Assembly: GCA_965285935.1 (NCBI GenBank)
Contig: OZ260662.1
Coordinates: forward strand, 14,260,001-14,324,000
Source: Ophelia neglecta
Lineage: Eukaryota
Direction of reading: 5' to 3'
Length of the DNA stretch: 64,000 nucleotides
Within the stretch, counting starts at the first letter, position 1. Each line of letters begins with the position of its first letter. Made by a program: the position numbers. This document shows, in pieces, positions 1-64,000 of the stretch.

Positions 1-3000
1 CACTACTCACATCAGACACAATACCAGTAGTACAGTCTGTACTACTCACAGAACACTTGTCATCAGATACCAGGGAGCTGTCACTGGTTATACATTTGTT
101 TTCCCTGTGTATCAAATGGTTGGTATGGGTGATTTGTTGGGTGCTATGGGTTACCAGTCCATTGCCAGGGGTGAGGGTGATATTACTAGTGTCATCCAAT
201 GTTAATTGTGATGTGTTTAGCGATGCTCTTGTACTTATGCTATAAAACTGCAGTTCATTGTAAATGTTAGATGATTCGTTCAACGAAAAGTTACGATATG
301 TGTTACTGGCCAATCCTGGGCTGCACAAGTGGGTCAGGTCAGGGCTGTGTATCTGGGTCAGGTTTCCCTGTAACTGGGTCAGGTCGGTGTTGGCACACAG
401 GTCCTTGACAAGGGTGTCAGACAGTTTATCATCACTGAGAGTCAGACCCAGGACCTTTCTGCCTGATCTCAGCAGGTGGGCGGCCCTGTCACTGTGTAGT
501 TTACGTTGTTTACACGGGGTGGCGCTGTCAATGTTCTCCTTGGTCTCGTCCAGGGACTCGTGGTGTTGACGGCGCAATCGCCGCAGCTTCATTCCACAAA
601 TCATCTTCAATCTATAAAAATAGAAAAAATAATGAGTTTTTAACATAATTGAAAAACTTCTATACAGTGACATGAGGAGGTGGAAGTAGCCAGAATGTGA
701 GTCAAATTATCTGGTTAATAAGACCAAGGTGTGGGTGCTAAAACAAAACTGTGACAGAAATGAAGATATCATGGCCTGAGGAGATCCGAGTTTGGATAAA
801 ACAACCACTTCTTGTAAATATATCTCACAATGAAATGGGGAGAATGTCTGTTTCCCCAACAATTCTCTTCATCATTATTATACAAGTAAGAAACCTACCT
901 TGTGTGAGGTGATATATGACAAGGTAGATGTGGCAATCAGATGTAGGTATCTGGCCACAACAACCACAAGTTACCAGAAAGAGAAACTTGTCTATTGCTT
1001 TAAGATCTACTACAGTACTGTGACACTCTGCAGACAATAGGTTGGATTGACAGTCTGTAGATAATAGCCAGTAGTCAGAGGTTTTAACCCTAACACTCCT
1101 CTCTGACAGTAGATCAGTGTAACCCCATGTTCTCCCAGACAGTATATCTGTGTAGCCCCACACTGATGTATTGTGGCAATCTAGACTTTTCCCTGAAGTA
1201 TCAACTCCAGAAGGAAACTGACAGTTCACCTCCCGTCTCAGTCTGTCGTTGGTCCAATGTCGCAAAGACCCTCCCACTCCTTTTAACACCCTCCAGAGAG
1301 AAGAACTTGGGAACAGAATGACATTATCCTCATAGACTAGTCACATTAATTGCCTTAGCGACCCCCAGGGGGCAGCAGGCAGGTAACAGAACCCAAATCA
1401 TGCCCTGTGGGACTAAAACCCCAAACACATACATACAATGACCTTCATCTTAACTATAATCCCCATATAGAACTTATTGTCTGGGGATTACACTTATAGC
1501 TCTCTTCTGGTCACTACGGGAGGTAGTAAAGTACTAGAGACCTCTGACACTGTGAACAGCTGCCTCCTAAGAAACCTGTGAGGAGCGTGCATCTTTTTAT
1601 CATAGAGTGCTATATGAAGGAAGTCCCTGTAACATTACATAGAACAGCTGGGCTCTGAAGACAGTTGAGGGTCAGGGCAGAGGGTCCTGTGGTCATTGAA
1701 CCACACATTGTATAACCCTGAATATATACAATGTGATTACTCGCTGATTTACAAACCCACAATAGATGTTACCTATACAAGGGGCCATTGACAACCTGCT
1801 CAGGAGTTTAAACACTGATATGTAAATTACAAACAATCTTTACAGTGAGTTTCTTTGAACCCAGAGCTCAGGTTATAACAGAGATTGTTCCTTATACAGT
1901 TATCAGTCCCTTGACATCAGCTGTCAGACACTAAATCACCAGATGTTCATCCTCACTTTAATACATATCATTCTATGGAGTGAGCAGACACTGATTGAAG
2001 TTGTTGGGCTTTGAGCAGTTTTCCCATCTGTCTATCTACTAAGGATGTAAACTGTCCACAATTCCCACTTTTTTAATCCCTCGTTCACAGATTGACAAGA
2101 TTAACCTGCCAGGTAATAAACAGCCTTAGAATGTGGAAAGCAGAGCACAGAGCACTTAGAGATAATTACTAGATCAATCACAGGTACAAGACATTGAGTG
2201 TGGCCATAGGTCTTATGGGATATAAACACAGGTACAGATAGAGGGGGGAGGGGGGGGGAGGGCAGTTTAATGTGATACCATACATACTTACCCACAAGAT
2301 AATATCATATCAAAAAGCTAACAGAGTATCAAAAAAAGGTCCCCAAATGCTATGTCCAGGTCCACTTTTGGCACACTTCCTCCTATGGTATATAACACTA
2401 CTAAAGTCCTGCTCACCATCTATTACTGAACTAATGTCCTCTGATGGCTGTTTAACCATTAGATCTAAGCCTAGATCTAAGCCATTTGTGGATCCTAAGA
2501 TCTCTCCTCATACAATGTGAGAAGACTTTAAATATGGCTGACAGCACAAGATTTAAACCTCTTTATATCTAAAAGGCAGAAGGTTTACTTAGGAGACAGT
2601 TAAGGGCTTAGCCTTAAGACGGGAGTCATTATCAGCGACAGTCTGATCTCAAGATCTCCGACACACACACACCAAGAGGCAGGTGTGAGGAATTGGATTA
2701 CAAAGGTATGTCAACAGAAATGTATGTTAATATGTCAGGGGCGAGGAAGGCACGCTTATAGCCCACCATCACTGATACATACTGCTGGGGAGGGGGGGGG
2801 GGGGGAGGGGAGGGTGTGGAGAGGAGGGGGGGGGGGGTGGGGTGGAGTGTGGCTGTCTGGGGAGAAGTGGATTACAAAGGTCATATGTCAGGGACGAGGA
2901 AGGCATGCTCATAGCCCAAGATCACTAGGGGGAGGGGAGGTGAGAAGACTGAGAAGATGCAGTCGGTAACAGGATCTACACCAAGATTTAATAACATGAG

Positions 3001-63000: not shown

Positions 63001-64000
63001 ACTATGGTCACTTATCTAGTCCTACCTAAGAGCCATCCATAAGTCAACCAACCAGCATTTCAATACTGTCATTAGAATGCCAAAATGTCCATACTCTTTG
63101 GTACAGCCACGCTGTTCATCAAATATGCACATATTCTAAAGAAGAAAGTTGGAGCCATTCCACAGTAGCATCTTTTAAACATGTCAAAATTGGTATATCC
63201 CTATTTTTTCTCATACATGTATATTGAAGTCTTCATAACATTCCAAGTACATAAATCCAACTGGTTTTTCCTTCCCACAATGTCATTCCTTCCCATTTGT
63301 TATTTTATGCCAGGAAAGCCAGTTCTTCATTTACAAGGCGCTGTAGCTTCAGTTGAATCCATACCAGGACAGTTTATTGGCTTTCAGGTTTTAGTTTCTT
63401 GGTGATTTAAATCCCTGAAACTCCTTATGGATTTCCTCTTTAACACTGTTTAACATGGTTTTCCTCTGTTTTACATGGTTTCCGTTGTCTTTACATGGTT
63501 TCCTGTGTTTACACATGCTGTTTTTCAGTTCCTTGAACACTTGGACTTCCTGGATTTTAAACACAATGCTCCAGAATGCTCTTTCATGTACACTTCTGTT
63601 TTAGGCCAGGTACATGAAGCATGTGATGGTTGCTATGATAATTGATGCAACCTGCCAAAGCGAGTTTCTCAGTGACAAGGTTGAATGGCTAGTCTGGAGA
63701 GAAGAAAAATATGCCATTTTATTGCCTTCACAGATACAGTTGTTTTTACAAAATATAAAAGTGTCTGTTCAGGAGTAAATTCCAAGTAATAAGGAGCTAA
63801 CATGAGTTAAAATGCTTCACTGTTAAGGACATAAATATAATCCTTAAGCATCGCTCGTCAAATGAATCCCTAAATAAACACAGAGGTGTATAATACATTA
63901 TCATACAATGAGGAGGTCTAGAACTAAGATTTGCAATCTTTATATTTCAATTTTATAATTTCAAAGTGTGCTCCAAGATTATCCACTGACCTTTTGGAGA

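What the first reader, a model, noticed from the sequence alone, without database searches (positions are those of the whole stretch)
1..64000. Tandem array of at least three PsGEF-like (C2-PDZ-RhoGEF-PH) units with a ~38-41 kb period
Seen: the + strand order is [first exon of copy A] - spacer - [3' end to first exon of copy B] - spacer - [3' flank of a presumed copy C]. In a two-copy duplication the 5'-to-3' spacer would occur once; here it occurs twice and is colinear throughout, with no unique breakpoint in view. Inference: at least three units. PsGEF is known as a single gene in Drosophila, so an array of a Rho-family GEF would be an unusual dosage or subfunction expansion.
Basis: partly seen in the sequence, partly recalled or inferred. 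Interest (0 to 1): 0.7.

Follow-up and report, generated by a model that had tools for sequence, protein, structure and literature searches.

The report
Tandemly duplicated PsGEF-like RhoGEF gene
The window holds a head-to-tail duplication of a roughly 40 kb unit, one Rho-family exchange-factor gene plus its long upstream spacer, which is an ordinary kind of gene duplication whose full copy number cannot be read from this window.

Summary
Bases 1-23309 repeat colinearly, in direct orientation, at 38279-64000. The offset grows from 38278 to about 40780, and the homology runs into both window ends. The window therefore shows about 1.6 periods.

On the minus strand lies one complete gene, B (23976-38889). 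It has 13 coding exons, all with AG/GT borders and consistent phases, giving 1264 codons. Exon-by-exon searches give C2, PDZ, RhoGEF and PH in that order, with no RGS domain. That is the PsGEF layout.

Copy A is seen only as 604 nt of its first coding exon. Nothing of a copy C gene is in view, only the equivalent of the flank starting 667 bp past B's stop.

"At least three units" is a fair probabilistic inference, not a demonstration. A two-unit model needs its junction inside the unseen 667 bp, which is 2.9% of the spacer.

The copies differ by 8.0% in the bulk of the spacer, 1.0% in the exon, and not at all over a 487-bp non-coding block. This points to a real, partly homogenised duplication.

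Orthology, organism and copy number remain untested. Interest is modest.

The parts
1..23309 (.). Repeat copy 1: 5' part of A's first coding exon plus the whole A-B spacer up to 667 bp from B's stop
   Evidence: colinear with 38279-64000; 20149 match, 1632 mismatch and 5469 gap columns
38279..64000 (.). Repeat copy 2: same part of B's first coding exon plus the spacer upstream of B
   Evidence: It carries extra segments at about 46.1-48.0 kb, 52.7-53.5 kb and 61.65-62.23 kb
1..611 (-). Copy A, first coding exon (partial; ATG at 604; candidate acceptor AG at 612-613; open to the window start)
   Evidence: 201 codons open; 6 of 603 nt differ from B (2 synonymous, 4 non-synonymous); tblastn 98% over 201 aa
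612..23975 (.). Spacer between B's stop and A's first coding exon (23364 bp)
   Evidence: No Rfam family, no tRNA. None of the spacer ORFs that I tested has a Pfam family. No conserved protein-like ORF
23976..38889 (-). Gene B, complete coding model: 13 coding exons, ATG 38882, TGA 23978-23976, 3795 nt
   Evidence: all 12 introns AG/GT, phases consistent, no in-frame stop in any exon
37526..38889 (-). B exon 1 (452 codons, Ser/Thr-rich, no family)
   Evidence: 0 Pfam families; no Atlas hit at 0.8 or above. Donor and acceptor seen
27480..29212 (-). Four C2 exons: 29154-29212, 28141-28235, 27909-27977, 27480-27696
   Evidence: fourth exon matches RGS3 C2 chain 3fbk, E 2.8e-7; second exon matches Pfam C2, E 0.03-0.043 (15 bits, cut-off 22). 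First and third assigned by eye and splice phase only
27149..27336 (-). PDZ exon
   Evidence: PF00595, E 1.1e-10, 42.2 bits (cut-off 23.2). DLG4, ARHGEF11/12, RGS12 and RGS3 PDZ domains
26407..27025 (-). Ser-rich linker exon (end of PDZ plus 200 aa, no family, no RGS)
   Evidence: 0 Pfam families
25190..26165 (-). Three DH (RhoGEF) exons: 25995-26165, 25633-25838, 25190-25368
   Evidence: PF00621 positions 1-49 (E 0.0026-0.0043) and 102-167 (E 1.7e-4 to 3.4e-4), each below the 27.6-bit cut-off. Middle exon has no hit
23976..25075 (-). Linker exon 24828-25075 and two PH exons 24370-24580, 23976-24151 (stop)
   Evidence: PH_16, E 0.0055 (17 bits, cut-off 22.8); weak ARHGEF11/12 PH region, E 0.26-0.68. 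Last exon read
38890..64000 (.). Spacer upstream of B; its right end corresponds to the flank 667-1370 bp past a stop codon
   Evidence: 22600-23309 aligns to 63299-64000, and the AATAAA at 23036 is kept
17390..17876 (.). 487-bp block identical in both copies (partner 57815-58301), non-coding, with X-box-like motifs
23728..23963 (-). Decayed duplicate of the middle DH exon plus 46 bp of its intron, 13 bp after B's stop
   Evidence: 67.3% over 254 columns to 25587-25840, with 10-bp and 7-bp gaps; tblastn E 6e-4 with an in-frame stop

Best explanation
This is a genuine head-to-tail segmental duplication. Its unit of about 38-41 kb is one PsGEF-like gene on the minus strand (14.9 kb from ATG to stop, 13 coding exons, C2-PDZ-DH-PH) plus about 23-25 kb of upstream non-coding spacer. 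The window shows two unit starts (A and B) and two spacers, so two units are shown. A third unit to the right is the more likely reading but is not shown. After the duplication the copies drifted apart in the spacer, by substitutions, many indels and copy-specific segments. The first coding exon, its proximal upstream 1.4 kb and a distal 1.2-kb block stayed nearly or fully identical. I attribute this to gene conversion between units, purifying selection, or both (inferred). By analogy with Drosophila PsGEF, the product would be a Rac-type exchange factor brought to membranes by its C2 domain and to partners by its PDZ domain. That is inferred from domain order only.
For: There is no N in the window. 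The gene model has 12 of 12 introns AG/GT and consistent phases. Domains were found exon by exon: PDZ E 1.1e-10; C2 through RGS3 chain 3fbk, E 2.8e-7, and Pfam C2, E 0.03; RhoGEF profile 1-49 and 102-167 on two exons in the right order; PH_16 E 0.0055. The PDZ-DH linker has no family. A's exon stays open over 201 codons with the same acceptor and ATG context. Divergence is 1.0% in the exon, 3.3% at 612-2000, 8.0% at 2001-23309 and 1.9% at 17201-18400. There are 2 synonymous differences in 136.7 synonymous sites; the chance of so few is 0.034 at 5% divergence and 0.002 at 7.7%. A 487-bp perfect run would be expected with probability of order 1e-8 or less. The PsGEF layout and its Rac1 link are from PMC2684095 (passages).
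Against: Only 1.6 periods are visible, and A's body and everything right of 64000 are unseen. No reads or depth were available, so an assembly artefact cannot be excluded directly. Every RhoGEF, C2 and PH exon match is below Pfam's curated cut-off when taken alone, and the middle DH exon matches nothing. Orthology to PsGEF was not tested by sequence. With 6 differences, dN/dS (0.59) says nothing about selection. The conserved blocks could reflect constraint rather than gene conversion.
Confidence: 0.8

Rival explanations
1. An array of three or more units: a further gene copy, or at least its 3' end, lies just right of the window, and copy A is complete to the left.
For: Homology runs to the last base of the window, which corresponds to 667 bp past B's stop. 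A two-unit model needs its junction inside those 667 bp, or 2.9% of the 23364-bp spacer. The AATAAA 940 nt after B's stop is kept in the right-hand copy. Signs of homogenisation fit a multi-copy array.
Against: No exon of a third gene is in the window. tblastn of the 13 exon peptides found only A's exon and one decayed DH exon. The argument assumes breakpoints placed at random. A decayed exon duplicate sits in the unseen-partner interval (23728-23963), so this spot has been rearranged before and a junction there is not far-fetched. A third unit could also be a fragment.
Confidence: 0.6
2. Exactly two units: one duplication whose 3' breakpoint fell within about 0.7 kb of the gene's stop codon, so that the array ends just right of the window.
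For: Everything in the window fits it, because two gene starts and two spacers are what a (spacer+gene) x 2 array gives. Two-member tandem duplicates are the commonest kind (general knowledge, not a call).
Against: It needs a breakpoint in 2.9% of the spacer, and needs it to lie just beyond the window's edge.
Confidence: 0.3
3. An assembly artefact: two haplotypes of a single-copy locus laid in tandem.
For: Coding sequence is 99% identical. No read data were available to me.
Against: No N or gap lies between the copies. Spacer divergence is 7.7% in substitutions, with 5469 gap columns out of 27250 and kilobase-scale copy-specific segments. To my knowledge (recalled) that exceeds allelic divergence in nearly all animals. 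The same geometric constraint as for the two-unit model applies.
Confidence: 0.06
4. Copy A's exon is an orphan: a duplicated 5' fragment that is a pseudogene piece or splices to a different gene left of the window.
For: Only 604 nt of A's coding sequence are visible. 4 of the 6 differences are non-synonymous.
Against: The frame is open over all 201 codons. The acceptor and ATG context are identical. Identity is higher than anywhere but the 487-bp block.
Confidence: 0.12

Closest known systems
PsGEF (protostome-specific GEF; Drosophila CG14045, with Tribolium, Apis, Pediculus and Lottia orthologues), Higuchi et al. 2009, PMC2684095
   Same: C2, then PDZ, then RhoGEF in one protein, with a long unconserved N-terminal region and no RGS domain. 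The C2 and PDZ resemble those of RGS3, as the paper says of the short form (passages; here).
   Different: Here the C2 region is split by three introns, against one in insects and two in Lottia in the paper (passage). At least two tandem copies are present, whereas the paper describes one gene per genome. Sequence orthology was not tested.
Vertebrate RGS3 (C2-PDZ-RGS)
   Same: Its C2 is the best solved match for the fourth C2 exon (3fbk, E 2.8e-7). Its PDZ is among the top matches (1whd and 2f5y, E 1e-6 to 2e-6).
   Different: No RGS domain was found here. A DH-PH module follows instead.
PDZ-RhoGEF / LARG (ARHGEF11/12: PDZ-RGSL-DH-PH)
   Same: Their PDZ is close (E 1.6e-9 to 1.1e-8). The order PDZ before DH-PH is shared. 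The PH exon's weak best matches lie in their PH region (E 0.26-0.68).
   Different: No RGS-like domain lies between PDZ and DH. A C2 domain precedes the PDZ here.
Tandemly arrayed genes with partial concerted evolution
   Same: Direct head-to-tail units, with coding and some regulatory stretches much more alike than the rest.
   Different: The unit is large (about 40 kb) and mostly spacer. The copy number is unknown.

Membership tests
PsGEF | C2 domain N-terminal to the PDZ | tested here: met
   The fourth C2 exon matches the RGS3 C2 chain 3fbk at E 2.8e-7. The second C2 exon matches Pfam C2 at E 0.03-0.043, below the 22-bit cut-off. The other two exons were assigned by eye and splice phase.
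PsGEF | PDZ domain between C2 and RhoGEF | tested here: met
   PF00595, E 1.1e-10, 42.2 bits against a cut-off of 23.2. Its position at 27149-27336 lies between the C2 and DH exons.
PsGEF | RhoGEF (DH) domain C-terminal to the PDZ | tested here: met
   Two separate exons match successive parts of PF00621, positions 1-49 and 102-167, at E 0.0026 and 1.7e-4 (similar). Each is below the 27.6-bit cut-off alone. The exon between them has no hit. The joined domain was not searched.
PsGEF | No RGS or RGS-like domain | tested here: met
   The linker exon 26407-27025 and exon 1 have 0 Pfam families.
PsGEF | Groups with PsGEF proteins in a sequence comparison or tree | not testable with these tools
The PsGEF sequences sit in the paper's Additional file 1 (a supplement, closed). 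The spliced protein was not joined.
PsGEF | Host is a protostome | not testable with these tools
   No tool named the organism, and the Atlas gave no usable taxa.
PsGEF | Exchange activity towards Rac | not testable with these tools
   This needs a bench assay. It is known for Drosophila only (PMC2684095 passages).
Tandem array of three or more units | Three or more colinear units in direct orientation | tested here: inconclusive
   1.6 periods are in view, and homology is open at both window ends. No third gene exon was found.
Tandem (head-to-tail) duplication | Two adjacent copies, same orientation, colinear | tested here: met
PDZ-RhoGEF / LARG (ARHGEF11/12) | RGS-like domain between PDZ and DH | tested here: not met
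   The 206-aa linker exon has 0 Pfam families.
RGS3 | RGS domain after C2 and PDZ | tested here: not met
   No exon has an RGS match. DH and PH follow instead.

The most novel reading that the evidence does not exclude
A lineage-specific array of three or more intact PsGEF-like genes that evolve in concert. Each would be driven from a distal module about 17 kb upstream that is kept identical between units and carries RFX-type X-box motifs. That would be an expansion of a neuronal Rac exchange factor, otherwise described as single-copy, under shared ciliated- or sensory-neuron-type control.
Probability: 0.3. Interest if true: 0.45.

Novelty: new member of a known kind. Interest (0 to 1): 0.3.

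Why it matters
PsGEF has been discussed as a gene gained once in protostomes and then kept or lost in step with brain structures (PMC2684095, abstract and passages). A species with several tandem copies would add gene gain to that picture. It would also give natural material for asking whether the copies split expression or function. In itself, a tandem duplicate of a signalling gene is common in animal genomes. The practical value here is a clean exon model, copy-diagnostic differences, and a short list of conserved non-coding blocks to test.

Tried and rejected
I went on with single ORFs and exons.
- One PDB query had wrong coordinates and was corrected.
- Atlas searches of exon 1 (best score 0.79, under the tool's 0.9 line) and of the middle DH exon (no usable hit) gave neither relatives nor taxa.
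- PDB searches with the three DH exons gave nothing significant: Intersectin at E 0.7-1.5 for two, and none for the third.
- Rfam at gathering threshold found 0 families over the whole window. At E up to 1 on 17000-18600 it found one match at E 0.59, 18 bits against a 60-bit threshold, which I reject as chance. There were 0 tRNA genes.
- I looked for a second gene in the spacer. The 16 spacer ORFs sent to Pfam gave 0 families (6 of the 10 queries, all 10). The intron ORF 36461-36835, also, gave none either. The screen for ORFs open in both copies gave only exon 1 and its overlapping frames, plus short unconvincing ORFs.
- I looked for relic exons of further copies in the spacers. tblastn of the 13 exon peptides found only the decayed DH exon at E below 0.1.
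- dN/dS on exon 1 rests on too few differences (6) to use.
- I did not scan genome contigs, because it holds bacteria and archaea only.
- Literature: 15 papers hold 'PsGEF', 3 of them also hold 'duplicat', and 4 hold 'protostome-specific GEF'. In the passages I read none reports a PsGEF array.

Full report
**What is in the sequence**

The window has no N. Self-comparison shows that 1-23309 recurs at 38279-64000 in the same orientation and the same order throughout. HSP identities are 82-93%. A MAFFT alignment of the two stretches has 20149 matching, 1632 mismatching and 5469 gap columns.

The offset is 38278 at the left end. It grows through copy-specific segments to 40691-40776 at the right. 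Homology begins at base 1 and ends at base 64000, so both of its limits are set by the window. 23310-38278 occurs once. The window thus shows about 1.6 periods of a direct repeat of 38-41 kb.

**The gene**

All coding evidence is on the minus strand. I searched the model exon by exon. I left out the step of joining the exons into one protein for a search or a fold, so no whole-protein score or tree is given.

Thirteen coding exons run from an ATG at 38882 to a TGA at 23978-23976. All 12 introns have AG and GT borders, the phases agree from exon to exon, and the total is 3795 nt, or 1264 codons plus stop (borders read).

- **Exon 1** (452 codons) is Ser/Thr-rich. It has no Pfam family and no Atlas relative. 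This fits the statement that PsGEF proteins are alike only in their domains (PMC2684095, passage).
- **C2** is carried by four small exons. The fourth matches the C2 of RGS3 (3fbk, E 2.8e-7). The second matches Pfam C2 weakly (E 0.03, below cut-off). The other two are assigned by eye and phase.
- **PDZ** is one clear exon (E 1.1e-10). Its nearest solved relatives are DLG4, ARHGEF11/12, RGS12 and RGS3.
- **Linker**: a 206-codon Ser-rich exon has no family and hence no RGS domain.
- **DH** spans three exons. The first and third match RhoGEF profile positions 1-49 and 102-167 (E 0.0026 and 1.7e-4; one search is similar), each below the curated cut-off alone. The middle one matches nothing.
- **PH**: a linker exon and two PH exons follow (PH_16, E 0.0055).

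The order C2-PDZ-RhoGEF without RGS is the layout described for PsGEF (PMC2684095, abstract and passages). PsGEF is listed as a protostome-specific Dbl-family member in PMC5499878 (passage).

**Copy A and 'copy C'**

Copy A is seen as 604 nt of coding sequence (604 down to 1) with the same acceptor and ATG context as B. It is open over 201 codons and differs from B at 6 of 603 nt, 2 synonymous and 4 non-synonymous. Its body would lie left of the window.

Nothing of a third gene is in the window. tblastn with the 13 exon peptides found A's exon and one decayed exon only. The right end of the window corresponds to 23309, which is 667 bp beyond B's stop. The AATAAA 940 nt after B's stop is kept in the right-hand copy.

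**How many units**

A duplicated (spacer + gene) segment gives spacer-gene-spacer-gene, which is what the window shows.

The finer form of the argument does carry weight. Assume one ancestral gene and one duplication. The inter-gene spacer then consists of the gene's 3' flank joined to the upstream segment, while the region upstream of the first gene shares only the upstream segment. Here homology holds all the way to 667 bp from B's stop. A two-unit model therefore needs its junction inside those 667 unseen bases, which is 2.9% of the 23364-bp spacer.

If breakpoints fall at random, this favours continuation of the array by a wide margin. I discount it for three reasons. Two-member duplicates are commoner. 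A third unit may be a fragment. The interval in question has been rearranged before (see the decayed exon below). My estimate, by inference, is about 0.6 for a third unit, at least in part. Two units are shown and three are not.

**Real or artefact**

There is no gap between the copies. Substitution divergence is 7.7% over the spacer, and a fifth of the alignment columns are gaps, including kilobase-scale copy-specific segments. That is more than I would expect between haplotypes (recalled knowledge). No reads were available, so this stays an inference.

**Uneven divergence**

| Region | Divergence |
|---|---|
| Exon-1 coding sequence | 1.0% |
| 612-2000 | 3.3% |
| 2001-23309 | 8.0% |
| 17201-18400 | 1.9% |

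Synonymous sites in exon 1 are also low, at 2 differences in 136.7 sites. The chance of so few is 0.034 at 5% divergence and 0.002 at 7.7%.

The longest perfect match between the copies is not in the exon. It is a 487-bp non-coding block, 17390-17876 matching 57815-58301. The chance of such a run is of order 1e-8 or less. Gene conversion between units, constraint on regulatory sequence, or both would explain this. I cannot separate them.

**Function**

By analogy only. In Drosophila, PsGEF interacts genetically with Rac1, and its RhoGEF domain induces Rac-type ruffling. The authors propose calcium-dependent membrane recruitment through C2 (PMC2684095, passages). Nothing here tests activity.

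**What stayed unchecked**

Orthology and taxon are therefore open.
- The supplements of PMC2684095 (PsGEF sequences) and PMC5499878 (per-clade tables) were closed. They may bear on whether PsGEF is single-copy outside Drosophila.
- Nothing suggested that the contig is human.

**Verdict**

This is a real-looking tandem duplication of a PsGEF-like gene with its spacer. The count of 'at least three' is plausible but unproven. It is an ordinary kind of event, of modest interest.

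Noticed in passing
window 17390-17876 and 57815-58301 (wider block 17201-18400): The longest perfect match between the two repeat copies is a 487-bp non-coding block about 17 kb upstream of each first coding exon. It is longer than any perfect run in the coding exon (174 bp). The surrounding 1.2 kb is 1.9% diverged, against 8.0% for the bulk of the spacer. It has no Rfam family and no Pfam ORF. Candidate donor sites (CAG|GTAAAT near 17338) follow it on the minus strand, so it might be a promoter plus non-coding first exon. That is untested.
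   Followed up: partly
window 17557-17570, 17708-17721, 18640-18653 and copies 57982-57995, 58133-58146, 59069-59082; also 14317, 23985, 27176: The X-box consensus for RFX/DAF-19 targets (GTHNYY AT RRNAAC, printed in bioRxiv 10.1101/2020.08.21.260547, passage) matches 15 times, at 9 distinct sites. The expectation from 100 shuffles is 0.57, and the largest shuffle count was 4. Two sites lie inside the 487-bp identical block and one lies 0.8 kb upstream of it, and all three are kept in both copies. Two further sites fall in coding exons of gene B. Palindromes and the duplication inflate the count to 15; there are 6 independent sites.
   Followed up: partly
window 23728-23963: A decayed duplicate of the middle DH exon, with 46 bp of its downstream intron including the donor site, starts 13 bp after gene B's stop codon. 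It is 67.3% identical to 25587-25840 over 254 columns, with 10-bp and 7-bp gaps and an in-frame stop. It is older than the unit duplication, to judge by identity. No other relic exons were found. Whether other units carry it cannot be seen from this window.
   Followed up: yes
window 38883-38889 and 605-611: A polypyrimidine tract and AG lie 7 nt before the ATG of the 'first exon' in both copies. In-frame ATGs also lie further upstream in the same open frame. The true transcript start and start codon are therefore open.
   Followed up: no
window 46151-48019, 52737-53456, 61654-62232 (extra in the right copy); 15632-15963 and 20967-21109 (extra in the left copy): Copy-specific segments of 0.1-2 kb account for the drift of the period from 38.3 to 40.8 kb. 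The one ORF tested there (46847-47182) has no Pfam family. I did not look for transposon ends.
   Followed up: no
window 33958-34340, 48852-49077, 4806-5036 / 43035-43254, 18939-19085: There are several minisatellite-like tandem repeats, with periods of 119, 101, 83/29 and 46 bp. One sits in gene B's 8.3-kb first intron and the others in the spacers.
   Followed up: no
window 23668 and 23036 (minus strand): Two candidate polyadenylation signals follow B's stop: ATTAAA 308 nt and AATAAA 940 nt downstream. If the distal one is used, the last roughly 270 bp of the window's right end would correspond to a 3' UTR of a further copy.
   Followed up: partly
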